From IMG/VR virus record IMGVR_UViG_2698536476_000008: 64,000 bases of DNA. One strand, given 5' to 3'. A program made the position numbers and the translations under genes. Below, one piece after another: positions 37,712-49,632 of the stretch. The notes beneath the pieces are model-generated. The model was not told the origin of the DNA. It ran no database searches and worked only from the letters and a program-made list of their open reading frames with translations. Positions within the stretch are counted from its first letter, which is position 1; each line of letters opens with the position of its first letter. The stretch is from a virus (taxonomy: Duplodnaviria > Heunggongvirae > Uroviricota > Caudoviricetes).

Positions 37712-38743
37712 ATGTCCAATTTACTGACCGTACACCAAAATTTGCCTGCATTACCGGTCGATGCAACGAGTGATGAGGTTCGCAAGAACCTGATGGACAT
37801 GTTCAGGGATCGCCAGGCGTTTTCTGAGCATACCTGGAAAATGCTTCTGTCCGTTTGCCGGTCGTGGGCGGCATGGTGCAAGTTGAATAACCGGAAATGG
37901 TTTCCCGCAGAACCTGAAGATGTTCGCGATTATCTTCTATATCTTCAGGCGCGCGGTCTGGCAGTAAAAACTATCCAGCAACATTTGGGCCAGCTAAACA
38001 TGCTTCATCGTCGGTCCGGGCTGCCACGACCAAGTGACAGCAATGCTGTTTCACTGGTCATGCGGCGGATTCGAAAAGAAAACGTTGATGCCGGTGAACG
38101 TGCAAAACAGGCATTGGCGTTCGAACGCACTGATTTCGACCAGGTTCGTTCACTCATGGAAAATAGCGATCGCTGCCAGGATATACGTAATCTGGCATTT
38201 CTTGGGATTGCTTATAATACCCTGCTACGTATAGCAGAAATTGCCAGGATCAGGGTTAAAGATATCTCACGTACTGACGGTGGGAGAATGTTAATCCATA
38301 TTGGCAGAACGAAAACGCTGGTTAGCACCGCAGGTGTAGAGAAGGCACTTAGCCTGGGGGTAACTAAACTGGTCGAGCGATGGATTTCTGTCTCTGGTGT
38401 AGCTGATGATCCGAATAACTACCTGTTTTGCCGGGTCAGAAAAAATGGTGTTGCCGCGCCATCTGCCACCAGCCAGCTATCAACTCGCGCCCTGGAAGGG
38501 ATTTTTGAAGCAACTCATCGATTGATTTACGGCGCTAAGGATGACTCTGGTCAGAGATACCTGGCCTGGTCTGGACACAGTGCCCGTGTCGGAGCAGCGC
38601 GAGATATGGCCCGCGCTGGAGTTTCAATACCGGAGATCATGCAAGCTGGTGGCTGGACCAATGTAAATATTGTCATGAACTATATCCGTAACCTGGATAG
38701 TGAAACAGGGGCAATGGTGCGCCTGCTGGAAGATGGCAATTAG
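37712..38743 (+). CDS. cre: Cre tyrosine recombinase
   Basis: 343-aa translation MSNLLTVHQNLPALPVDATSDEVRKNLMDMFRDRQAFSEHTWKMLLSVCRSWAAWCKLNNRKWFPAEPEDVRDYLLYLQARGLAVKTIQQHLGQLNMLHRRSGLPRPSDSNAVSLVMRRIRKENVDAGERAKQALAFERTDFDQVRSLMENSDRCQDIRNLAFLGIAYNTLLRIAEIARIRVKDISRTDGGRMLIHIGRTKTLVSTAGVEKALSLGVTKLVERWISVSGVADDPNNYLFCRVRKNGVAAPSATSQLSTRALEGIFEATHRLIYGAKDDSGQRYLAWSGHSARVGAARDMARAGVSIPEIMQAGGWTNVNIVMNYIRNLDSETGAMVRLLEDGN (to my recollection, standard Cre apart from possibly the final residue). Confidence 0.97.
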   Translation: MSNLLTVHQNLPALPVDATSDEVRKNLMDMFRDRQAFSEHTWKMLLSVCRSWAAWCKLNNRKWFPAEPEDVRDYLLYLQARGLAVKTIQQHLGQLNMLHRRSGLPRPSDSNAVSLVMRRIRKENVDAGERAKQALAFERTDFDQVRSLMENSDRCQDIRNLAFLGIAYNTLLRIAEIARIRVKDISRTDGGRMLIHIGRTKTLVSTAGVEKALSLGVTKLVERWISVSGVADDPNNYLFCRVRKNGVAAPSATSQLSTRALEGIFEATHRLIYGAKDDSGQRYLAWSGHSARVGAARDMARAGVSIPEIMQAGGWTNVNIVMNYIRNLDSETGAMVRLLEDGN

Positions 38744-39913: not shown

Positions 39914-40101
39914 TAAATATATTATTTTTAATCTTAAATGATTGACAACTGACAAGTGACTTGAGTCAGAATCATCACACGCCCGGTACGGATGGATCCC
40001 TTTTCAAATATTCCATGGACGGCACAGTCTGAGTACCGGGCGCTACCTTCAGTTGTATTGCTAAGCCGCCGCTGGTGGCTTTTCTTTTTTGTAGGGGCGC
40101 T

Positions 40102-40743
40102 ATGGATAAGAAAATATGCGTTGTTTCGATGAGCGTCGGCAAACCGGCGTCAATGACTGCTGCATGGATCAACAACGAGCTGATAATGGCTGAGCGGACC
40201 AGCTACCCTGAACGCCGCCGCGACATGGAACTCCAGCTGCTGCGCGAATTGCGAGAAAAAGAGGAAAAGGGTTTTATCGTGCTGGTGGAAGAGGAAAACA
40301 GCTTTATTACTGGTCGAGTTGGCCAGCGTGTAAGGTTGCGCGATCCCTTCATGAACGGCAGGCCGGTACTGATTGAAGCAATGCAGATTTACAAGGAGCT
40401 GGAACGCCAGAAAGCGATCAAGTTACCGCGCAAGGAATCCGGCAAATACATCCTCCACCAAAGCATCTTCGATTCCGAACACGATAAAAAAGGCGATGAA
40501 TTTTTCAACATCAACTGGAGCGAAATAACGACAGAGCATGTTCTGACGTTACTATGTTGCTTTGCGACGGAATACAACAACGTTGCCAGCGCAGACTACA
40601 TCAGGGCAATGGCTGGAGAAGTTGAGGCACGCCAGGAACCATCGTTACTAAGCCCTCTGATTAACATAATTCGCGGAACCCAAACGCTGGCACAAAAACA
40701 GGTGCCTAAGGGAGTATTAACAGGAAAAGGAAATTATCTATAA
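40102..40743 (+). CDS. Mat-position protein (particle maturation-like), start uncertain
   Basis: ORF track 40075..40743; late-promoter-like motif upstream. Confidence 0.4.
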   Translation: MDKKICVVSMSVGKPASMTAAWINNELIMAERTSYPERRRDMELQLLRELREKEEKGFIVLVEEENSFITGRVGQRVRLRDPFMNGRPVLIEAMQIYKELERQKAIKLPRKESGKYILHQSIFDSEHDKKGDEFFNINWSEITTEHVLTLLCCFATEYNNVASADYIRAMAGEVEARQEPSLLSPLINIIRGTQTLAQKQVPKGVLTGKGNYL

Positions 40744-40799
40744 ACGTCAATGCATTAGGGTATACTTCTCCGTAGAACTATAAGTAAATGGAGTAAGTA

Positions 40800-42104
40800 A
40801 TGAGCGAGTATATAGAAATTGCCTATGCAGCAGCTACACATAGGCTGTGCTTTCTTACAGGCACTGGATTTTCAAAGGCTGTTTCTGATGATAAAGCCCC
40901 AAGTTGGCAATCTTTATTGGAGCAACTGTGCGGTTTATTGAAGGATGGTGACTCACTCAAAGAGGAATTATTTCCTGATGGAAAAGCAAAAGACCTTAGC
41001 CTTGAAGAGGCTGCTCAAGTTATTGCACTAAAATTTATACTTTCGGGGAAAAATATTTACCAGGAGATTGAGAAAATCATAGCCTCAATCGAACTTGATC
41101 CATCAATTGAATATATTCAAGACTTTTTCAAAGAAAACACATTTAAAGTAATTACGACAAATTATGACAAGTTAGCAGAAAAACTGGCTGGAGAGAATCG
41201 AACGTGTACAATCACCCCCGGCCTGCCAATTCCAAAATATAATTGTGAGGTTAAAGTCTACCATGTTCACGGCTCTATAGACTCCCCATCAGATATGGTT
41301 GTTACTAGCGAGGATTATTTCAGATTTATAAATGGTAATTCTTACTTTTCAAATAAACTAAGCACAGTTCTACATGAAAACACTATTGTTATTCTTGGCT
41401 ATTCTCTAAGTGACGCGAACCTCAAGGCGATTATAAATGAATATAAGGTATTTTCACGGGACAACGTAATGTCCTCCAATATTTTCCTTATTTCCCGAGG
41501 AAAACTATTGCAACCTATTAAAGATTACTATTTTTCCTGCTTTGGGATTAGGGTTATAGATAAAACAGAGGTGTCTGATTTCTTTAGAAAACTTAACAAG
41601 AAAATTCCAGAAGCAAAAAAAATAAAAGACAAATTGAGGCACTCAATCAAATCGGTAATAAAAAACGGAAGAGAGTATAAAATAGAGTTCTTGAAGTTAG
41701 AGGATTCTTTTTATCATATCATTTCCTCCATTTCATCATCTGGATATAGCTGGAATGATGAAAAGGTATTAAATGTTTTTTGTGATATAATAGATAAAAA
41801 AATAGATCTTACTAAAGAGTCTGGCGCATGGGAGCAGTATGAACACCTGGCAAAATGGCTTATTTATTTCGGTAGTTTATTTGAAGTAAAAGGAACCAAC
41901 TTTGAGAAAAAATACATACATGCGGTTGAACACTCAATGACTTATATGAATAAACCTTACGAAACAGGCTACTCATGGCGAGCATATCTAGCCTGGAAAA
42001 CAAAATGGCCTTCACTGACAGCATCTAACCGCTCTCTTATTAAGAGTAAGATGGAAGAAATCCCGCTACAACAGATTCACGATATTATATCTAAGTTTAT
42101 ATAG
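40800..42104 (+). CDS. SIR2-like (sirtuin-fold, SIR2_2/DSR-ThsA type) protein with uncharacterised C-terminal half; candidate single-gene antiphage defense
   Basis: N-terminal motifs LCFLTGTGFSK, VITTNYDKL, KVYHVHGS; low GC relative to flanks; occupies the mat to lxc interval. Confidence 0.7.
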   Translation: MSEYIEIAYAAATHRLCFLTGTGFSKAVSDDKAPSWQSLLEQLCGLLKDGDSLKEELFPDGKAKDLSLEEAAQVIALKFILSGKNIYQEIEKIIASIELDPSIEYIQDFFKENTFKVITTNYDKLAEKLAGENRTCTITPGLPIPKYNCEVKVYHVHGSIDSPSDMVVTSEDYFRFINGNSYFSNKLSTVLHENTIVILGYSLSDANLKAIINEYKVFSRDNVMSSNIFLISRGKLLQPIKDYYFSCFGIRVIDKTEVSDFFRKLNKKIPEAKKIKDKLRHSIKSVIKNGREYKIEFLKLEDSFYHIISSISSSGYSWNDEKVLNVFCDIIDKKIDLTKESGAWEQYEHLAKWLIYFGSLFEVKGTNFEKKYIHAVEHSMTYMNKPYETGYSWRAYLAWKTKWPSLTASNRSLIKSKMEEIPLQQIHDIISKFI

Positions 42105-42112
42105 TATATTTA

Positions 42113-42139
42113 TCTCCGGCCTAATCTCCCTAGGCCGGA
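42113..42139. terminator. Bidirectional terminator hairpin (ctccggcc-taatctccctag-ggccggag) between convergent SIR2-like gene and lxc
   Basis: 8-bp GC-rich inverted repeat. Confidence 0.5.
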
Positions 42140-42145
42140 GAGTTC

Positions 42146-42394
42146 TTAATCAGCATTCAGGAGCAATGCGTTATCTATGATGATCTGCTCCCATTCCTCG
42201 AATGCCCGGTCGCGGACGCCCTGGGGAACGCTGTTAGTTTTGAAATCGACGACCGTCCGCCATTTTCCGTCCGGACGGTACATGCGCAGAGCTTTACTTC
42301 CCCCTTCCCTGCGCACCTCAACGTTATGCTTGTCAGCAAACTCTTGTAATGCTCGTAGCGTCCCATGCTTTACTGTGTAGTATCGCTTTTTCAA
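42146..42394 (-). CDS. Lxc/Bof-position protein (82 aa)
   Basis: Size and position downstream of ulx/darB. Confidence 0.4.
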   Translation of the reverse strand: MKKRYYTVKHGTLRALQEFADKHNVEVRREGGSKALRMYRPDGKWRTVVDFKTNSVPQGVRDRAFEEWEQIIIDNALLLNAD

Positions 42395-42831
42395 GTTTTC
42401 TCTCCAGCCTGTGCCAAGGCTTCAACTTCCAAATCGTAAGACTCAAACTCATAGTCCTGGTCGTCAACTTCTTCAGGCACTGGCAGTAAATGCCAGGCTG
42501 AGTATATCTGACCATTATCAAAACGCTCCTGGCTGTAGAGCGTCGCGGCTATGAGTGTTAGCGCCGGGCGGTCATAACGGTAAATTTTGCGAACGTCACG
42601 GTCAACGAGACGACCGAAATTACCATAACCGCGCTCCAGTAATAATTTTTTAATTTCCGGCCAGTATGGACCATAGCTGCGGTACAGGCGGGGATTTTTC
42701 AGTAATCGCCCGCGTAGCCCTGACAGGAAGAAATCAACGTATTCGTCTTCTGTCTTTCCTAACAACGCTGTACGGAGTACCGCCTCAAGATATGTTTTAT
42801 TCGGTTTTATTGTATCAGATAGTGTGGCCAT
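42391..42831 (-). CDS. Ulx-position protein (146 aa)
   Basis: ORF coupled between darB and lxc. Confidence 0.4.
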   Translation of the reverse strand: MATLSDTIKPNKTYLEAVLRTALLGKTEDEYVDFFLSGLRGRLLKNPRLYRSYGPYWPEIKKLLLERGYGNFGRLVDRDVRKIYRYDRPALTLIAATLYSQERFDNGQIYSAWHLLPVPEEVDDQDYEFESYDLEVEALAQAGEKT

Positions 42832-42864: not shown

Positions 42865-45800
42865 TTATGCGTATTGTTGGATGACGGCCAGAACGTCCGC
42901 CACGTTGTGTTTTGTCTCGATAATCCACCAGTTACCCGGGAAATCGCTGTTCTTCGCCTTCGCTGGCAGCCAGCGAGCGCCGAATTTCGCCTTGATTGCG
43001 TCTTTCGCACGGAAAAGAACGCCTTTCATGCCTGAGGCTTCCTGAAGCCCAAATACCTCGCCAGCGGCGAATTTTGGTGCGTACATCATCTTCAGGTCGG
43101 CGGTGGATACGCGATAATTCAGACCAAGAGACTGAGCTATGCTGGTGGCATCACCCTGTATTGATGATAACTCTTCTTGTTTCTCGTTTCTGGCGGCAAT
43201 CTCTTCCTCCGTGATGTTGCCAAGGGCTAGGTTTATCCGATCAGCGTCGGCCTGTTTCTCTTCATCGGTGCGCCCGGCAAGAACCGTGTTAATTCTCTGC
43301 AATATCTCCACATGATTCTTGCGCATGCTGAGCAATTCCGGCGTAACCTCGTTAAGATCCACCAGCCCAAGGATGGCAAGGTCGGAAAACATTGATACCA
43401 GGTTGTAGGTCATGCGATAGCTGAGTTGACCATAGGCTGATGGCAACTTCACCGCATCCATTTGATAGGCATCCATAAATTTAGAGCCGTCGTTTACGAC
43501 ATCCGCTATTGCAGGTGTGATTTTCCCTGTGGTGGCGGCCTCCCTGATTGCTGTTACCCACGATTGAGTCAGCGCGGCGACTGCATGATTCAGATTGGCT
43601 TCCCGTTCTGCTGCGATGCGCGCGCTTGCTGCGTCCATTGCCTGCTTGATCTCGGCTTTATTGCTGTAAATGCCAATGGTGCCAAACTGTGCTGTGGTGA
43701 TCTCATAATCTGACGCCCGGAACTCATTGGTACCGAAAATGGCATTGGTGACTTCAAGTTCAGAATCCCCGTTACGAGTAGCCCCCTGGCTTGTTTTTTC
43801 CGGCATTCTGGCGATCGCATCCGCTATTTTCTCCTGAATTGCTTCAGGGGATAGCGTATCTCCGTATGACGCGATTACATCGCCATAATTGGAGCCAAAC
43901 AGTTCAACCAGGAATGTTTCTGCCGAACGGATCTGGCGGTTATTCCCTTCCGACATCATACCAAGCACCCATTTTGCAATTGACGACTTCAGCGCGCCGT
44001 CACGGCGATCCGGGTAAACCGCATGCTTCAGTGGGTCCGTATAGGTACCAACAAAATCGATGCTATAGCCTGACTCTGTAGTCTGAACGCCGTATGAGTC
44101 AGTGATTTTGATCATGCCGCGCTGCTGGAAACGGTAGAAATCGTCACAGGAAATGATGTCGTTAATCCCGGCGATGGAGACGCCACCACTGATTTTCTGC
44201 ATAACAGCATCTTCATCGGGAGTTACATCAACCTGTTTATCCAGCGTCTTCACATCCCAGTTACCCGATTTGGTGCCTTTGAAGGTAAAGATGATCTCCA
44301 CGTCTGCGCGCTGGCTGTCGAAGTCCAGCGACTTAATGCGAACGATATCACCGGCACAATCATAGTATTGGCCTACACGCCATGAGCGATCGCCGATAAC
44401 AAGGAACTCATTCGCATGGTTAACCAGATCAGGATCAACATCCAGAATGCCTTTATTTATTGCATCCTCCACCAGCGGGCGCAGGCGTTTGATATCCGTC
44501 GCGGCCTTCTGAGTACGGTTCAATAATTTCTCATAGCGGGAGATGGCCTGAGAGATATTAGCCTTGCGCTGAATGGCGCTTTTCAACGACGCGCGATACT
44601 GTGCTAACAACATACGGTCTGTGTGATGGACGCTACCCCAGCGGGCTTTCCAGTCTGCGTTATCAGCTGCTTTGGCCATTACCGCCTGTTTGAATTTAGC
44701 TACCTCGGCGGTGGTCTTTTCAAGTTCCGCTTTGCTTCGCTCCAATTCAGCGGTAAGTACCTCCACATCCTCACCAGCTGCGTGCTGCGCCTTGATGTAG
44801 TTCTGAAGGTCGATAGTAGCCTGTTCTTTCTGGCGAGCGCGTTTCGCAGCTTTCGCCTTATCCATTTGAACCTGCATCATTGCCAGACGTTCGCCGTCAT
44901 CCTTCGCGGTATACATCTGCATTTCGATCATGTCATTGGCGTCGGCGTTCTCCATTTCTGACTTATCTGAACGGAGGATATCGGAGATCCAGCCTGCTTT
45001 ACGCTTCAGCGTCTTCAGTCGGTATTCATCGAAAGACCCCTTGCCGCAGTAGTAGTGAACGCGAACGCTTGCACGGTTGGAGCCAACTCGTGCACCGCGA
45101 CCGTTACGTTGTGCGATGCTGGCTGGTGTCCATGGCAACGTCAGATGATGGATGTCAGTCGTTCCTCGATGCAGGTTGATACCCACCTCTGCCTTTTTGT
45201 TGCAGATGATGATCGGAGTCCGGCCCTCCTGGAAGTCGGCTGCAATCTTTTCCAGACCGCCCAACGACATTTCATTTTGCTGCGCGATATAGGCGTCATA
45301 CAGAGCCATTTGCTCGTTGTATTTCGCTATCTGTGCATCTGTTGGTTCATCCGGTAGCTCTTTCGGCGGTTTAACCGCTTTCAGTTTCTTACCGGTTTTA
45401 CCTGCCTCGGCAACCGTCTGAGCATTCAGGATCCCCACCTTTGAAGGTTCAAGGTTTAGAGCATTGCAGATAATGCGCTTGAGCTTCTGGTGCTGCGTTT
45501 TTTCATCGGTGAAGATGATTTGCTTACCTTCCGGGAAAAACTCCTTCAGCGTGGCGATCAGCTTCGCGTATTTCGGCGTAACGGGGTGAGTTACGGTCTG
45601 TTCGTCAATGCCAAACCTGGCCAGGCGCTTATTCACTTCCTGCTCGAACGCTTCCGGAACCTGCAACTGAATAAACTCGCCCTTATCTATCAGGGAGTAT
45701 TGCGATTGCTGCGTGATTGAATCATCACTGTCGTCGTCTTCGCTGGTGGCTTGTTTAGGCAAACTGTCCGCCAGCTGCTGCACCGCATCGGCGTACTCCG

Positions 45801-48800
45801 GCAGGAAACGATAGGTGATCCGGCGATAGTACAGGTCCATGTCAGTACATACGCGGTCCATATCCCTGATTATTGAGAAGATCGGACGGGCTTTCTCGTG
45901 CTCAATCACGCCGTCTTCATTGACCGAGGTCGTTACGCCATTGTTGGCTTTGGCCGCCGCTTCCGCCTGCTGACGCAATTCTTCATACGCCGCCAGTTGT
46001 TCTTCAGTAAGTGGTGCATCCTGCTGGTGTTCGTCCAGCTCCGGGATCTCCACGGTATCCTTAACGTCTTCCGCCGTTTTAAGCGTTACCCAGCGATGGA
46101 ATATACCGCGCAGCGCATCAAGGTTTTCAAAGCCCACCAGCGCCATTTTTTCTTCAACTTCACCGCTAATTTTCTGTACCGTTTCCAGCCTGGTCTTGCC
46201 GAAGAATTTAACGAAGTCATCAGGACCGTAGATCCCCATGTTCTGCCAGTATTCCTTCGGCAGAACATGAGAAAGCATGTTGTATGCATCGATCGGGGTG
46301 TTAACGACTGGCGTTGCAGTCAGGAGAACCGGCCCGCGCCCGCCATTCTTTTTCATCAGGTACGCGTTTTTAATTGCCATATCTCGCGCCGATTGCGCCA
46401 CCGCGCTGGTGGGCAGATAGGCCAGTTGTGACGCTTCGCGACCATTTTTATAGCTATTGCGGTAGTTGTGACCTTCGTCGGCGATCACACTATCGAAGCC
46501 CATATCCTCAAAGTACGGATACTTCTCTGCTTTTTCGGTGCCGGTATCTGAATACTCCGACAATACCCGGCGACGCGCGGCCTCTTTGCGGTGGGAGTCG
46601 GAGTCCATTGCGCTGGCTACGCGCCCGGCTGCAACGAAGTCATAAAGCATATCCTGTGCATGCTCATCTACGGTGTCATCACGTAGCGGAATGCGGGCGT
46701 ATTGTTCTTTGGTAAACACGACTGCACGGTAATTTGAGTGCGGGATCGCGTTCATCCGCGCCGTGATAGTGGCTTCATCTGCCAGTTTTAGGGCATCGCG
46801 CATAACTGGAGTGCCATCAGTACCAAGAACAGGTTTACCGTTCTCATCGAGCACCGGCACCTGGCGAATCTGATCGCCATCCATCAGCACATCAAGACCG
46901 ACGAACAGGTAGTTACTGAATGCCTCTTCACTCAGGAATTCTTTTGCTTCGTAATACCAGTTTTCCAGCACTGATTTAGGCACTACATACGCAGTACGGG
47001 TGGAGCGACCGTTCTCATAGTTGAACGCCTCAAGCGCCAGCGCGGTCGTAGTTTTACCCAGCCCGGTGCCGAAGCCCAGGATGCCGCGCCCATCTTCGGA
47101 CAGTCGGCGCACTTCGCTATTCTGGTAATCAAATGGCTGGCGCTTACCGCTTAATCCCTTCAACCCAAGCGGATCGCCAGAGTGTTCATACGGGATATTG
47201 CTATTGAACACATCGTTGTATTTGGCAACCAGTTCATCGTAGCGATCGTGCGTCTTGATCCACTTATTGAACTGGTCCTCAAGCAGTGCCATCTGCTCGC
47301 GGTAGCCGTTCGCCGTCGCGCTATCTTTGCCACCGATACGCGCACCATTGAGATACTTTTCCAGCTGTGCCGGGAACCCGGTCGCGTTTTCACCTGATTT
47401 ACGGTCCCACTCGTAGCGGATCTCGCCTGTTTCTTTATCCTTGCGCTGGACGACACCGTATCGGTGCCCGACGAACAGGCCATCACCACCGTGATAGGTG
47501 TCAGAAACCATTTCGTCGCCTTCCAGCTGCACTGACTGCACATAGCGCAGATCCGGATAGCCGTTTTCCTGCAAAAACTCCAGAATGACGGAACGGTCGA
47601 ACCAACGGCTATTGAGCTTAAACCGGATATTCTCTGCTGGCGTCTTGATGCGCTTCTCTTCGATCGCTGCCAGCTGATTAAGGACGTTGTTCTTTACTGG
47701 ACCGTCGGGGAGCGTGGCGAGGAATTCCTGTTTTGGAGCCACTATCTCGTTAATGTCGCCGCTGGTGGCGCGGGCGAACGGAACAATCCCGCCATACGGT
47801 GAAACCGCAATACCAGGAGTGCTGGCCAATAAATTAAGCAACTCTTCATCACTGGCTGGCAATTCGCCGGTAAACGCAAGGCGGAAATCATCGAGCTGGA
47901 TTGGATCGCGGGTAAGATCGCTATAGAGATAACGCAGGGTGTCCTGATAGCTGGTGGAGTCATAACTGGCGCTGGAATCATGCGTAACCAGCTTTCCTGT
48001 CAGCTCGTCAGAAATAGTGCCATCCAGCTTAATTGCACCACGGAAAGCAAACCAGGCGCGCGCACCGCTTCCCGATAATTTAGCTATCGGACCGCGACCA
48101 GGGTTACCAAAACGGTCAATCTCTGCCTGCAAACGGGATACCAGAGAAAGGCGCTGCTGTTCGATTTGTTCAGCACTATGCCCGGCGGCCTTCATATCCT
48201 GATATTCAATTAACATCCGGCCAATCATCGCCCCACGATACAAGCGTTCACGGTATTTTTCAGGCTGGCTGTTAATCCAGTCCACCAGCTGCACCATATC
48301 GTCGCTGATTGATGTGGTGTACTTATCGCGGACATTTGCCATCTGGGTAAATGTCATACCGAGACGGCCTTCTGTTGTAGTCAGGTTACGCTGAAGAGCC
48401 TCCCAGCTATCCGCGCCATAACTGGCAGCATCAATTTTAAGTTCCTTCCCGGCATCAGCTTCAATCCAGCGACCACCAGCATATTTTTGCCATACGCCAT
48501 TAATCAGGCGCATTTCCCCTTCACCAACAACGTCTGCGGTCAGTGACGGTTCAGCCATATCGAGCAAAGACCAGTCGATACGGCTTTCGAAACGATGAAT
48601 CAGCTTCGCTTTAAGAGCCTGGTTATCAATCTGACCGTCGGCACGAACCTCAATACGCCCCTGGAAGCCCTTTTCCTGGGTGCCATGAACAAACCGGCGG
48701 CCATCCTTTTCAAACCACTTGCCAGAAATAAACGTTGGCCAAAGCACATTTGCCGATTCAAGAGTGCTTTCATCCACCAGGGGGATTTTCTCAGCCATCT

Positions 48801-49632
48801 CTGCCGGATGTTTGCGCATCAGCACCACATCAACGACTGTACTGGTCCCGTTTGCGTCAAAAGTACCGGTAGGCAAGCGGTGGGCACCAAGAAATTCAGC
48901 TTTCCGTGATAGGCGCAGGCGTAACCGCTTCATGTTTGAACCTGAAACAATGGACGGCGGCACAATCACGCACATGAATCCGCCTGGCTTTATCTTGTCC
49001 AGCATGCGGAGCATGAAGTAAGAACCCATGTCCGTTTCTTCTGCGTAAGGCTTATCGATGTTGCGTGTGTTATCACGACCGCCGAACGGAACGTTACCCA
49101 CAACATGGTCGAATGAATCGTTAGGCGTGCTTATAGCCAGCTGTTCGAACGGGGAAATCTGTACGCTGTCTTCCGGGTGTAACAACTGGTTTATACGACC
49201 GGAAACACTGCTGATCTCAGTCGCGGTCATCACCGTACCAACCGGTTTTGTCTCATTAAAAACGCCGGTTCCCGCCGATGGTTCCAGAGTGTTACCTACG
49301 TCCGCGCCGTAGAGCTTCATGATCTCCCAGACACCTTCAGCGATCGGCTTTGGTGTGTAATATTCGGAGACGGACCCGCCAATGCCGCCTTCACCGGTGT
49401 ACCCAGCCAGGATCTGGCGCTGTTCATCTGTCAGTGTCGCGCCGTCCACCAGCGAATTAAGCAAATCTATCGCCTTCTGATTCGCCTCCCGGCGTAGTCG
49501 GTCATAGCTTTTGCCTTCCACCTTTTCCACGCCGTATCTAATCGGCGCTCGGTGAGATGTTATTGCCCTAATGTATTTCAATATTTCGCTGACACTTGAA
49601 CAGCGAAACACCCCCATAGATAGCTTGTTCAT
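42865..49632 (-). CDS. darB: DarB-like giant antirestriction protein (2255 aa) with N-terminal methyltransferase-like and helicase-like regions
   Basis: Single 6.8-kb ORF of exactly the size I recall for P1 DarB; DPPY-like and helicase motifs. Confidence 0.8.
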   Translation of the reverse strand: MNKLSMGVFRCSSVSEILKYIRAITSHRAPIRYGVEKVEGKSYDRLRREANQKAIDLLNSLVDGATLTDEQRQILAGYTGEGGIGGSVSEYYTPKPIAEGVWEIMKLYGADVGNTLEPSAGTGVFNETKPVGTVMTATEISSVSGRINQLLHPEDSVQISPFEQLAISTPNDSFDHVVGNVPFGGRDNTRNIDKPYAEETDMGSYFMLRMLDKIKPGGFMCVIVPPSIVSGSNMKRLRLRLSRKAEFLGAHRLPTGTFDANGTSTVVDVVLMRKHPAEMAEKIPLVDESTLESANVLWPTFISGKWFEKDGRRFVHGTQEKGFQGRIEVRADGQIDNQALKAKLIHRFESRIDWSLLDMAEPSLTADVVGEGEMRLINGVWQKYAGGRWIEADAGKELKIDAASYGADSWEALQRNLTTTEGRLGMTFTQMANVRDKYTTSISDDMVQLVDWINSQPEKYRERLYRGAMIGRMLIEYQDMKAAGHSAEQIEQQRLSLVSRLQAEIDRFGNPGRGPIAKLSGSGARAWFAFRGAIKLDGTISDELTGKLVTHDSSASYDSTSYQDTLRYLYSDLTRDPIQLDDFRLAFTGELPASDEELLNLLASTPGIAVSPYGGIVPFARATSGDINEIVAPKQEFLATLPDGPVKNNVLNQLAAIEEKRIKTPAENIRFKLNSRWFDRSVILEFLQENGYPDLRYVQSVQLEGDEMVSDTYHGGDGLFVGHRYGVVQRKDKETGEIRYEWDRKSGENATGFPAQLEKYLNGARIGGKDSATANGYREQMALLEDQFNKWIKTHDRYDELVAKYNDVFNSNIPYEHSGDPLGLKGLSGKRQPFDYQNSEVRRLSEDGRGILGFGTGLGKTTTALALEAFNYENGRSTRTAYVVPKSVLENWYYEAKEFLSEEAFSNYLFVGLDVLMDGDQIRQVPVLDENGKPVLGTDGTPVMRDALKLADEATITARMNAIPHSNYRAVVFTKEQYARIPLRDDTVDEHAQDMLYDFVAAGRVASAMDSDSHRKEAARRRVLSEYSDTGTEKAEKYPYFEDMGFDSVIADEGHNYRNSYKNGREASQLAYLPTSAVAQSARDMAIKNAYLMKKNGGRGPVLLTATPVVNTPIDAYNMLSHVLPKEYWQNMGIYGPDDFVKFFGKTRLETVQKISGEVEEKMALVGFENLDALRGIFHRWVTLKTAEDVKDTVEIPELDEHQQDAPLTEEQLAAYEELRQQAEAAAKANNGVTTSVNEDGVIEHEKARPIFSIIRDMDRVCTDMDLYYRRITYRFLPEYADAVQQLADSLPKQATSEDDDSDDSITQQSQYSLIDKGEFIQLQVPEAFEQEVNKRLARFGIDEQTVTHPVTPKYAKLIATLKEFFPEGKQIIFTDEKTQHQKLKRIICNALNLEPSKVGILNAQTVAEAGKTGKKLKAVKPPKELPDEPTDAQIAKYNEQMALYDAYIAQQNEMSLGGLEKIAADFQEGRTPIIICNKKAEVGINLHRGTTDIHHLTLPWTPASIAQRNGRGARVGSNRASVRVHYYCGKGSFDEYRLKTLKRKAGWISDILRSDKSEMENADANDMIEMQMYTAKDDGERLAMMQVQMDKAKAAKRARQKEQATIDLQNYIKAQHAAGEDVEVLTAELERSKAELEKTTAEVAKFKQAVMAKAADNADWKARWGSVHHTDRMLLAQYRASLKSAIQRKANISQAISRYEKLLNRTQKAATDIKRLRPLVEDAINKGILDVDPDLVNHANEFLVIGDRSWRVGQYYDCAGDIVRIKSLDFDSQRADVEIIFTFKGTKSGNWDVKTLDKQVDVTPDEDAVMQKISGGVSIAGINDIISCDDFYRFQQRGMIKITDSYGVQTTESGYSIDFVGTYTDPLKHAVYPDRRDGALKSSIAKWVLGMMSEGNNRQIRSAETFLVELFGSNYGDVIASYGDTLSPEAIQEKIADAIARMPEKTSQGATRNGDSELEVTNAIFGTNEFRASDYEITTAQFGTIGIYSNKAEIKQAMDAASARIAAEREANLNHAVAALTQSWVTAIREAATTGKITPAIADVVNDGSKFMDAYQMDAVKLPSAYGQLSYRMTYNLVSMFSDLAILGLVDLNEVTPELLSMRKNHVEILQRINTVLAGRTDEEKQADADRINLALGNITEEEIAARNEKQEELSSIQGDATSIAQSLGLNYRVSTADLKMMYAPKFAAGEVFGLQEASGMKGVLFRAKDAIKAKFGARWLPAKAKNSDFPGNWWIIETKHNVADVLAVIQQYA

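What the first reader, a model, noticed from the sequence alone, without database searches (positions are those of the whole stretch)
40800..42104. Stand-alone SIR2-like gene in the slot where P1 carries its restriction-modification genes
The 434-aa product has the three hallmark motifs of defense-type SIR2 domains (GTGFSK glycine-rich loop, TTNYD, HVHGS) in its first ~250 residues. It is a single gene with no TIR, HerA, Argonaute or STAND partner nearby, and it lies between a mat-like gene and lxc/ulx/darB, where canonical P1 (as I recall it) has EcoP1I res-mod. A NAD-degrading abortive-infection effector carried by a phage-plasmid would be consistent with this, and the architecture (short SIR2 plus an unknown ~180-aa C-terminal domain) does not match the partnered or much larger SIR2 systems I know (ThsA+ThsB, DSR1/DSR2, SIR2-HerA).
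Basis: partly seen in the sequence, partly recalled or inferred. Interest (0 to 1): 0.85.

Follow-up and report, generated by a model that had tools for sequence, protein, structure and literature searches.

The report
Solitary SIR2 defence-type gene in P1 hotspot
A P1-like phage-plasmid carries, where phage P1 keeps its restriction enzyme, a single gene that fuses an NAD-destroying SIR2 enzyme domain to a small helical-repeat domain; it most likely protects the host from other phages, belongs to a widespread but untested family, and matches no named SIR2 defence system.

Summary
ORF 40800-42104 (+) encodes 434 aa with a strong Pfam SIR2_2 hit and family-invariant GTGFS, TTNYD and HxHGS motifs. 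N121, D123 and H157 align with the NADase pocket residues of DSR2 and ThsA. It lies in a 1,402-bp low-GC cassette (40744-42145) inserted exactly between the mat and lxc stop codons. Phage P1 has EcoPI res/mod there, SJ46 has the validated defence gene CapRel, and RCS47 has nothing. About 18% of roughly 700 P1-like plasmids carry a member of this family in that slot, so it is accessory.

The predicted structure has a SIR2 core closest to the defence NADases KomC, ThsA and Avs5, followed by a 180-aa alpha-solenoid. That C-terminal domain is found only fused to SIR2. In 63 genomes from different species no neighbouring gene family recurs, so the gene is solitary.

The best explanation is a self-contained sensor-effector, a miniature DSR2-like protein, that depletes NAD+ when a phage component binds the solenoid. 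This is inferred, not shown. Expression in lysogens is uncertain because there is no clear own promoter. It fails membership tests for DSR1/2, Thoeris, SIR2-HerA, Lamassu, Avs5 and Kongming. I call it a new variant of a known kind, of moderate interest.

The parts
40744..42145 (+). Variable cargo cassette (1,402 bp, GC 0.36) inserted between the stop codons of mat and lxc
   Evidence: Backbone homology to RCS47, SJ46 and P1 ends at 40737-40743 and resumes at 42132-42146. RCS47 has only 39 bp here. GC dips to 0.32-0.38.
40744..40799 (+). 56-bp leader with Shine-Dalgarno GGAG (40790-40793), nearly invariant among all P1-slot SIR2 alleles
   Evidence: The leader is identical apart from 1-2 nt in 7 alleles whose proteins are only about 58% identical. 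It is unrelated to the DNA upstream of chromosomal homologues. It holds only a weak promoter-like match (-10 TATACT at 40761). A predicted SD-sequestering hairpin is not significant against shuffles.
40800..42104 (+). Gene for the 434-aa SIR2 + alpha-solenoid protein (identical in 100%-identity cluster P0001; near-identical plasmid copy annotated as RefSeq WP_000006034.1)
40800..41564 (+). N-terminal SIR2_2 NADase-type domain (residues 1-255), with G21-T-G-F-S25, N121, D123 and H157
41565..42101 (+). C-terminal all-helical alpha-solenoid (HEAT/ARM-like) domain (residues 256-434); proposed sensor/regulatory domain
42113..42141 (+). GC-rich 11-bp-stem hairpin right after the stop codon, facing the convergent lxc; terminator-like and cassette-specific
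   Evidence: Each slot variant has a different hairpin at this position.
40102..40743 (+). mat-like gene (left border of the slot). No terminator separates it from the SIR2 gene. The C1 operator Omat and Pmat/LPmat upstream are conserved.
42146..42831 (-). lxc (42146-42394) and ulx (42391-42831), the right border of the slot, followed by darB (42865-49632)

Best explanation
The gene encodes a self-contained, single-chain anti-phage sensor-effector carried as exchangeable cargo by a P1-like phage-plasmid.

Proposed mechanism. The N-terminal SIR2 domain is an NAD+ glycohydrolase that is kept inactive in uninfected cells. The C-terminal 180-aa alpha-solenoid binds a component of a superinfecting phage, by analogy with DSR2, whose HEAT-like solenoid captures a tail tube protein. 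Binding releases or assembles the SIR2 domains, probably as oligomers or filaments as in ThsA, KomC and Avs5. NAD+ is then depleted and the infected cell stops supporting phage growth (abortive infection). This protects the lysogen population and hence the P1-like element.

Shown here: the gene is real and under purifying selection; it has the SIR2 fold with the catalytic residues; it is solitary; it is accessory and sits in a cargo hotspot that elsewhere holds EcoPI and CapRel; its C-terminal domain is family-specific and mosaic among alleles.

Inferred: NADase activity, phage sensing by the C-terminal domain, the mode of activation, the abortive-infection outcome, and expression in the lysogen.
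For: - Solitary. No partner-type gene is annotated on the whole plasmid. In 63 loci from different species no neighbour family recurs in more than 5 loci. Upstream ORFs in two contexts are unrelated.
- Defence context. The same slot holds EcoPI in P1, the validated CapRel-SJ46 and the PADLOC candidate PDC-S31. It is empty in RCS47. The E. coli chromosomal homologue sits at the end of a prophage next to the integrase. Immediate neighbours in other species include dGTPase, type I REase, AbiU, AbiD, PD-T7-1/5 and HamB.
- Mobile and accessory. The cassette has low GC. The family is in 127 of about 700 P1-like plasmids and 141 of 5,426 E. coli genomes. Its distribution is patchy across phyla and it occurs on non-P1 viral contigs.
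- Sensor-like C-terminus. It is an alpha-solenoid fold like the DSR2 CTD. It is less conserved than the core (55% against 70% pairwise). Within allele clade B-E the core is 93-95% identical but the C-terminus only 69-82%, with mostly higher dS, which indicates domain exchange.
Against: - There is no experimental datum for this family. I found no paper on it.
- There is no convincing sigma-70 promoter in the 56-bp leader. With no terminator after mat, transcription may depend on Pmat/LPmat, which are C1-repressed and late-activated in P1. A lysogen-protecting gene would be expected to be expressed in the prophage state.
- dN/dS is below 1 in both domains, so there is no signature of an arms race at that resolution.
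- The C-terminal domain is not found with other effectors, so it is not demonstrably a portable sensor.
- Many immediate neighbours in other genomes are housekeeping genes, and I had no baseline for enrichment.
Confidence: 0.6

Rival explanations
1. It is an orphan signal-activated effector. Like ThsA or KomC, the SIR2 domain would be switched on by a small-molecule signal made in trans by a host- or phage-encoded enzyme (TIR, cyclase or KomA/B-like), and the C-terminal domain would be the ligand receptor.
For: The SIR2 domain is closest in fold to the signal-activated KomC and ThsA and in sequence profile to ThsA. One of 122 immediate neighbours in other genomes is a ThsB-like TIR.
Against: The C-terminal domain is an all-helical solenoid, not a SLOG/STALD, Macro, CARF or SAVED-type ligand-binding fold, and it has no PADLOC or Pfam hit. 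No partner recurs in 63 genomes and none is annotated on the plasmid. A mobile single-gene cassette that depended on a partner would rarely work after transfer.
Confidence: 0.1
2. It is a defence protein but not an NAD-depleting one. The SIR2 domain would act as an ADP-ribosyltransferase or deacylase on a specific phage or host target (protein or nucleic acid), blocking infection without killing the cell through NAD+ loss.
Against: The closest structural relatives by a wide margin are NAD+ hydrolases. Every characterised SIR2_2-type defence effector in the PDB hits is described as an NADase.
Confidence: 0.1
3. It is not a defence gene. It would be an NAD-dependent protein deacylase (the current RefSeq name) or another regulator serving P1 development or host physiology, co-expressed with mat.
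For: RefSeq names it 'SIR2 family NAD-dependent protein deacylase'. It lies directly downstream of mat with no terminator and no clear promoter of its own. Some homologues sit among housekeeping genes.
Against: It lacks the Zn-binding Cys4 module of classical sirtuins: only C17 and C44 are invariant. Its fold similarity to deacylases is weaker. It is dispensable: the site is empty in RCS47 and alternative cargo is found in about 80% of P1-like plasmids. The low GC, patchy taxonomy and prophage-end location are typical of defence cargo.
Confidence: 0.12
4. It is a selfish maintenance or competition module. The latent NADase would kill cells that lose the plasmid or acquire a competing P1-like element, a form of addiction or exclusion, and would not defend against unrelated phages.
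For: It is carried on a low-copy plasmid-prophage that already uses the phd/doc and hok addiction systems. Different alleles alternate among otherwise similar P1-like plasmids.
Against: There is no antitoxin-like partner or overlapping small ORF in the 1.4-kb cassette. Homologues are mostly chromosomal and solitary.
Confidence: 0.05

Closest known systems
DSR2 (defence-associated sirtuin 2, Bacillus subtilis)
   Same: It is also a single polypeptide with an N-terminal SIR2 NADase followed by an alpha-helical solenoid. The pocket residues are the same (N133/D135/H171 = N121/D123/H157). It is the top Foldseek and PDB-sequence hit. In DSR2 the HEAT-like solenoid directly binds the phage tail tube protein (PMC11850899). 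This is the best model for how the protein here may work.
   Different: DSR2 is about 1,005 aa, with a MID domain and a long CTD. This protein is 434 aa with about 180 aa of solenoid. The NCBIfam Dsr2 equivalog scores 30.6 bits against a cutoff of 1,400. Similarity is confined to the SIR2 domain, with no specific match of the C-terminal domains.
ThsA (Thoeris) and KomC (Kongming) SIR2 NADases
   Different: ThsA carries a SLOG/STALD ligand-binding domain and needs ThsB. KomC is a bare SIR2 of about 270 aa that works with KomA/B. None of those domains or partners is present here.
CapRel-SJ46 (fused toxin-antitoxin defence of phage SJ46)
   Same: It occupies exactly the same mat-lxc slot in a sister P1-like phage. 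It is also a single gene that fuses an effector to a C-terminal sensor, and it is validated as anti-phage (PMC9712102).
   Different: The protein is unrelated: a RelA/SpoT-type tRNA pyrophosphokinase, not a SIR2.
PADLOC candidate PDC-S25 / phrog_2695 (single-gene SIR2 candidates of about 520-530 aa)
   Same: This is the best PADLOC hit (E=5e-24), and it is likewise a single-gene SIR2 candidate.
   Different: The match covers only the SIR2 part (query residues 100-253, profile positions 127-283 of 517). The proteins are about 90 aa longer and the C-terminal domain is not matched. I found no experimental report for it either.
Lamassu LmuA with SIR2 effector
   Same: The profile has a similar length (433) and gives a collinear N-terminal match (query 20-219 to profile 21-221, E=2e-13).
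   Different: The C-terminal half does not match. The obligatory SMC-like LmuB is absent from the plasmid and from 63 other loci.

Membership tests
SIR2_2 superfamily (Pfam PF13289), defence-type SIR2 fold | Profile match above the gathering threshold, and a Rossmann-like SIR2 fold | tested here: met
SIR2 NADase effectors (functional class) | Catalytic Asn, Asp and His of the NAD pocket are conserved | tested here: met
   N121, D123 and H157 are invariant in 41 sequences and align with DSR2 N133/D135/H171 and ThsA N112/H152.
SIR2 NADase effectors (functional class) | NAD+ hydrolysis and NAD+ depletion on infection; phage protection | not testable with these tools
   This needs biochemistry and phage challenge. 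No published data were found.
DSR2 / DSR1 | NCBIfam equivalog score of at least 1,400 bits; a protein of about 1,000-1,260 aa with MID plus a long HEAT-like CTD | tested here: not met
   Dsr2 scores 30.6 bits and Dsr1 21.2 bits. The protein is 434 aa and the similarity is limited to the SIR2 domain.
Thoeris (ThsA + ThsB) | SLOG/STALD (or Macro/TM) domain C-terminal to SIR2 | tested here: not met
   ThsA profile hits stop at profile positions 215-230. The C-terminus is an all-alpha solenoid.
Thoeris (ThsA + ThsB) | Adjacent TIR-domain ThsB | tested here: not met
   None is annotated on the plasmid. Only 1 ThsB-like match was found among 122 immediate neighbours taken from 63 loci.
SIR2-HerA (Nezha) | Adjacent HerA-type ATPase/helicase | tested here: not met
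Lamassu (LmuA-SIR2 + LmuB) | SMC-like LmuB partner and the LmuA C-terminal domain | tested here: not met
   The LmuA profile matches only positions 21-221 of 433. The C-terminus alone has no PADLOC hit. No SMC-like gene is annotated on the plasmid.
Avs5 / SIR2-STAND; SPARSA (SIR2-APAZ + short Ago); Kongming (KomABC) | A STAND NTPase domain in cis, or an Argonaute partner, or KomA/KomB partners | tested here: not met
   The only Pfam domain is SIR2_2. The protein has 434 aa with no P-loop domain in the model. No such genes are nearby or on the plasmid.
PADLOC candidate PDC-S25 | Full-length match to the 517-528-position profiles | tested here: not met
   Only profile positions 127-283 are matched.
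Classical sirtuin deacylases (CobB/Sir2/SIRT) | Zn-binding Cys4 module and closest fold similarity | tested here: not met
Cargo of the P1-like mat-lxc variable slot | Insert bounded exactly by the mat and lxc stop codons, with alternative contents in related elements | tested here: met
   Boundaries at 40743/42146. The site is empty in RCS47. Alternatives are EcoPI, CapRel, DUF2971, YaaC, GNAT and EAL/AraC.

The most novel reading that the evidence does not exclude
This would be the founding example of a 'mini-DSR' class: the smallest self-contained SIR2 immune receptor. Its family-specific 180-aa alpha-solenoid would directly recognise a phage protein and switch on NAD+ depletion. Recognition domains would be shuffled between alleles that alternate in a previously undescribed defence-cargo hotspot (mat-lxc) of P1-like phage-plasmids. 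At 434 aa it would be a minimal, tractable model for how a solenoid sensor gates a SIR2 NADase.
Probability: 0.4. Interest if true: 0.65.

Novelty: new variant of a known kind. Interest (0 to 1): 0.55.

Why it matters
SIR2 NADases are among the most common effectors of bacterial immunity. The characterised ones are either large (DSR1/2, Avs5) or depend on partners (Thoeris, SIR2-HerA, SPARSA, Lamassu, Kongming). A 434-aa single-chain version with its own sensor-like domain would be the simplest system for studying how trigger binding gates a SIR2 NADase, and a compact part for engineering.

The family is widespread. A genome scan found 111 matching stretches, essentially one per species, across several phyla. 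It is in 2.6% of complete E. coli genomes and about 18% of P1-like plasmids. Current defence-annotation profiles hit only its SIR2 domain, so defence censuses of phage-plasmids probably undercount it.

The mat-lxc slot, which holds EcoPI, CapRel, this SIR2, PDC-S31 and several unknown cargoes, is a ready-made place to look for further defence genes. It also shows how clinically common P1-like plasmids, which often carry resistance genes, may shape phage susceptibility of E. coli, Salmonella and Klebsiella, which is relevant to phage therapy.

Tried and rejected
- **Conserved partner.** I checked 5 hand-read contexts, compared upstream ORFs, read a whole near-identical plasmid and clustered all ORFs around 63 homologues. 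None was found, so two-gene readings are disfavoured.
- **Portable sensor.** A C-terminal-domain profile against 1.84 billion representatives found it only fused to SIR2. The two non-SIR2 hits at E of about 3e-4 are glycosidase/lectin proteins and look spurious. I dropped the idea of a shared sensor module.
- **Positive selection on the C-terminus.** dN/dS is 0.14-0.25, higher than the core's 0.06-0.09 but below 1, and dS is higher in the C-terminus in 5 of 6 pairs. I therefore read it as mosaic exchange plus relaxed constraint, not an arms-race signature.
- **Regulatory hairpin in the conserved leader.** A stem sequestering the SD is predicted at -10.4 kcal/mol, but z is only -2.0 (48 nt) or -0.25 (67 nt). 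It is not claimed.
- **Own promoter.** The consensus scan and a relaxed scan found only a weak -10.
- **Literature.** Nine searches (SIR2 with P1 or phage-plasmid, PDC-S25, stand-alone SIR2, the accession WP_000006034, short or mini DSR names, P1 hotspot terms) found no description of this family or of the slot as a hotspot. The library lacks most subscription papers, so absence is not proof.
- **Deposited phage genomes.** None in the 50,697-record collection has the gene by DNA or protein search. IMG/VR P1-like contigs do have it.
Full report
**Observation.** The ORF is present exactly as described: 40800..42104 on the + strand, 434 aa, ATG start. GGAG at 40790-40793 lies 6 nt upstream, and an 11-bp-stem GC-rich hairpin follows the stop codon at 42113-42141. 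GC falls to 0.32-0.38 across the gene against about 0.50 on both sides. Upstream lie cre (37712-38743) and a mat-like gene ending at 40743. Downstream on the opposite strand lie lxc, ulx and darB.

**It is a real SIR2-family gene.** Pfam SIR2_2 scores 83.8 bits (E=1.6e-23) against a cutoff of 24.5, over residues 117-245. A search of 5.8 billion proteins gave 665 homologues. The best 120 are nearly all 431-444 aa and match full length at 52-61% identity. The identical protein heads a cluster of 827 sequences. In a 41-sequence alignment G21-T-G-F-S25, T119-T-N-Y-D123, H155 and H157-G-S159 are invariant, as is a set of Trp/Tyr residues in the C-terminal part. HMMER alignments to solved structures place N121, D123 and H157 on DSR2 N133, D135 and H171, and N121 and H157 on ThsA N112 and H152. 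In DSR2 these residues line the NAD+ pocket, and the H171A and N133A/H171A mutants lose toxicity and NAD+ depletion (PMC11850899). S25 is probably the counterpart of DSR2 S51, but that stretch lies outside the alignment.

**Structure.** AlphaFold2 on the family alignment gives a confident model (pLDDT 85.4, pTM 0.83). It has an alpha/beta core over residues about 1-255, then a long helix and an all-helical domain to residue 433.
- Foldseek ranks DSR2 first. However, the TM-score to full-length DSR2 is no better than to chains holding only the SIR2 domain, so the similarity is in the SIR2 core.
- The family has no conserved Cys4 zinc module: only C17 and C44 are invariant.

**It matches no named SIR2 system.**
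- PADLOC hits (PDC-S25, ThsA, LmuA, Dsr2, 'SIR2') all cover only the SIR2 part.
- The NCBIfam equivalogs for Dsr2 and Dsr1 score 30.6 and 21.2 bits against cutoffs of 1,400.
- PHROGs has the protein end to end as phrog_7567, 'unknown function'.
- RefSeq calls it 'SIR2 family protein' or, more recently, 'SIR2 family NAD-dependent protein deacylase'.

**The gene is solitary.**
- A near-identical 93-kb plasmid (NZ_CP080083.1) read in full is a plain P1/IncY backbone, with no TIR, HerA, SMC-like, Argonaute or STAND gene annotated.
- Hand-read contexts of homologues differ. In E. coli chromosomes the gene sits alone at the end of a lambdoid prophage, directly after the integrase. It is solitary in Pseudoalteromonas and Paracidovorax, and lies in a defence-island-like stretch in Halomonas. 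Small upstream ORFs in two contexts are unrelated.
- For a systematic test I fetched relatives from one genome per species (111 matching stretches confirmed as relatives, spanning Gamma-, Beta- and Alphaproteobacteria plus sporadic other phyla). I called ORFs around 63 full-length loci and clustered them. The SIR2 gene clusters in 62 loci, but no neighbour family occurs in more than 5, and those lie a median 2.5 kb or more away.
- The nearest neighbours are a mixture of housekeeping genes and strong matches to defence families: dGTPase, type I REase, NERD+UvrD, AbiU, AbiD, PD-T7-1, PD-T7-5, HamB, mads genes, PDC-S31, and one ThsB. I had no baseline, so I treat this only as compatible with a defence role.

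**The C-terminal domain belongs only to this family.** A profile of it searched against 1.84 billion representatives found 97 clusters. Every full-length hit is 406-480 aa with the domain at about residues 255-450, and every divergent hit I scanned has SIR2_2 in front. It is therefore not a module shared with other effectors. It is less conserved than the core: 55% against 70% mean pairwise identity.

**The locus is a cargo hotspot.**
- Homology to RCS47, SJ46 and P1 stops at the mat stop codon (40737-40743) and resumes at the lxc stop codon (42132-42146). This defines a 1,402-bp cassette, 40744-42145.
- RCS47 has an empty site of 39 bp. SJ46 has a 373-aa RelA/SpoT gene there, which is CapRel-SJ46, an experimentally validated anti-phage fused toxin-antitoxin (PMC9712102). 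P1 has EcoPI.
- An evenly spaced sample of 60 of 708 P1-like plasmid records shows these occupants: this SIR2, a second SIR2 clade, empty sites, CapRel, GNAT, YaaC plus a small second gene, DUF2971, an EAL fragment plus an AraC-type regulator, and larger inserts.
- Among these, DUF2971 matches the PADLOC candidate PDC-S31 and CapRel matches PDC-S33. The others have no defence-profile hit. The slot is therefore rich in defence genes but not exclusively so.
- lxc/ulx occur in 699 plasmid records. The window's allele is in 66 and the family in 127, about 18%. In complete E. coli genomes it is in 141 of 5,426, with 138 of 148 places on plasmids. It is accessory, not core. I found no paper describing this slot as a hotspot.

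**Alleles.** Two clades alternate in the slot. Clade A is the window's, with variants at 93-98% amino-acid identity. Clade B-E is 64% identical to A in the core and 50% in the C-terminus.
- All alleles are intact.
- Within B-E the core is 93-95% identical but the C-terminus only 69-82%.
- dS is higher in the C-terminus in 5 of 6 pairs (0.4-1.5 against 0.35-0.56). dN/dS is 0.14-0.25 there against 0.06-0.09 in the core.
- I read this as exchange of C-terminal domains among alleles plus weaker constraint. That is what a specificity domain would show, but there is no dN/dS above 1.
- The 56-bp leader is nearly invariant in all seven alleles examined, although the proteins differ by about 40%. It is unrelated to the upstream DNA of chromosomal homologues.

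**An open problem: expression.** The leader holds only a weak promoter-like match and the consensus scan found none. No terminator separates mat from the gene. The C1 operator Omat and Pmat/LPmat upstream of mat are 99% conserved with P1. The gene may therefore be transcribed with mat, which in P1 is C1-repressed and late-activated. A lysogen-protecting gene would be expected to be on in the prophage state. This needs transcript mapping. A predicted hairpin pairing ACUUCUCC with the SD is not better than shuffled controls.

**Mechanism, and how sure I am.**
- Near-certain (above 0.9): this is a functional, horizontally acquired, solitary SIR2_2-family gene sitting in a variable cargo slot of a P1-like phage-plasmid.
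- Probable (about 0.6): it is an anti-phage NADase whose alpha-solenoid domain senses a phage component and releases or assembles the SIR2 domains, depleting NAD+ and aborting infection. The closest working analogy is DSR2, whose HEAT-like solenoid captures the tail tube protein. The closest SIR2 cores (ThsA, KomC, Avs5) are solved as helical assemblies in their PDB entries, so activation by oligomerisation is plausible but untested.
- Rivals: a trans-signal-activated orphan effector (0.10), a defence enzyme with non-hydrolytic chemistry (0.10), a non-defence deacylase or regulator tied to mat (0.12), and an addiction or exclusion module (0.05).

**Novelty and score.** The kind of system, a SIR2 NAD+-depleting defence with a fused sensor, is known. 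This family is not a member of any named system, and no report of it having been tested turned up in my searches. One recent domain-centric screen explicitly excluded single-gene candidates. I rate it a new variant of a known kind. Interest is moderate (0.55): a specialist would find it plausible, not astonishing. It is compact, common, directly testable, and comes with a useful hotspot.

Noticed in passing
window 40743/42146 (slot between mat and lxc); L009, L010, L011, L020-L023: The mat-lxc junction of P1-like elements is a precise cargo hotspot with at least eight alternative contents: empty, EcoPI, CapRel, two SIR2 clades, DUF2971/PDC-S31, YaaC plus a small gene, GNAT, and an EAL fragment plus AraC regulator. 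Each brings its own terminator hairpin. I found no paper describing it.
   Followed up: partly
window 40744-40799; L012-L017 equivalent positions: The 56-bp leader upstream of the SIR2 gene is nearly invariant across alleles whose proteins differ by about 40%. It is predicted to form a hairpin that sequesters the Shine-Dalgarno (-10.4 kcal/mol), but the fold is not significant against shuffles (z -2.0 / -0.25). Why the leader is so conserved is unexplained; it may be a recombination anchor or a regulatory element.
   Followed up: partly
L021:1151-2490 (NZ_CP087567.1): One alternative slot cargo is a two-gene cassette: a YaaC-like protein (Pfam E=1e-29) followed by a 169-aa protein with a weak nucleoside 2-deoxyribosyltransferase-like match (E=1.8e-4, below the Pfam cutoff). 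It has no PADLOC hit and could be an uncharacterised defence pair.
   Followed up: partly
L020:943-1983 (-) and two members of alignment A4: DUF2971/PDC-S31 is both an alternative cargo of the P1 slot and the immediate neighbour of the SIR2 homologue in 2 of 63 unrelated genomes. The same small set of cargo genes seems to travel in the same company.
   Followed up: no
L013:1-309 (NZ_CP057257.1); also H106: In some P1-like plasmids a DUF4145-domain gene sits where ref normally lies, just upstream of mat. This suggests a second variable site next to the first.
   Followed up: no
window 40063-40081: A terminator-like hairpin with a T-run lies between Pmat/LPmat and the mat ATG (40102), and it is identical in P1. 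The window, like RCS47 and SJ46, lacks one G that P1 has at the corresponding position just downstream of the hairpin. The mat ORF is therefore 213 aa instead of P1's annotated 250 aa.
   Followed up: no
L001-L004:8001-9311 (E. coli chromosomes): A 56%-identical homologue sits alone at the end of a lambdoid prophage, right after the integrase and next to the host narP/ccm region. The index lists the protein in 67 blocks of the collection, and 24 contigs carrying it were read. In L001/L002 the 3.3 kb downstream has no called gene, where L003 has a split AIDA-type autotransporter.
   Followed up: no
one member of alignment A4 (locus not identified): One of the 122 immediate neighbours scanned around the 63 loci is a strong ThsB-like TIR match (E=6e-52). 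It could be an adjacent Thoeris system or a rare pairing. I did not identify which locus.
   Followed up: no
RefSeq annotation of WP_000006034.1: The RefSeq product name has drifted from 'SIR2 family protein' to 'SIR2 family NAD-dependent protein deacylase'. The protein lacks the zinc module and is structurally closer to NADases, so the newer name is probably misleading.
   Followed up: partly
L007:10335-14278 (-) (Paracidovorax avenae): About 1 kb downstream of the SIR2 homologue, on the opposite strand, lies a 189-aa AAA_23/SMC_N fragment followed by an 1,135-aa protein with no Pfam hit. It may be a split SMC-like defence ATPase. It is not seen next to other homologues.
   Followed up: no
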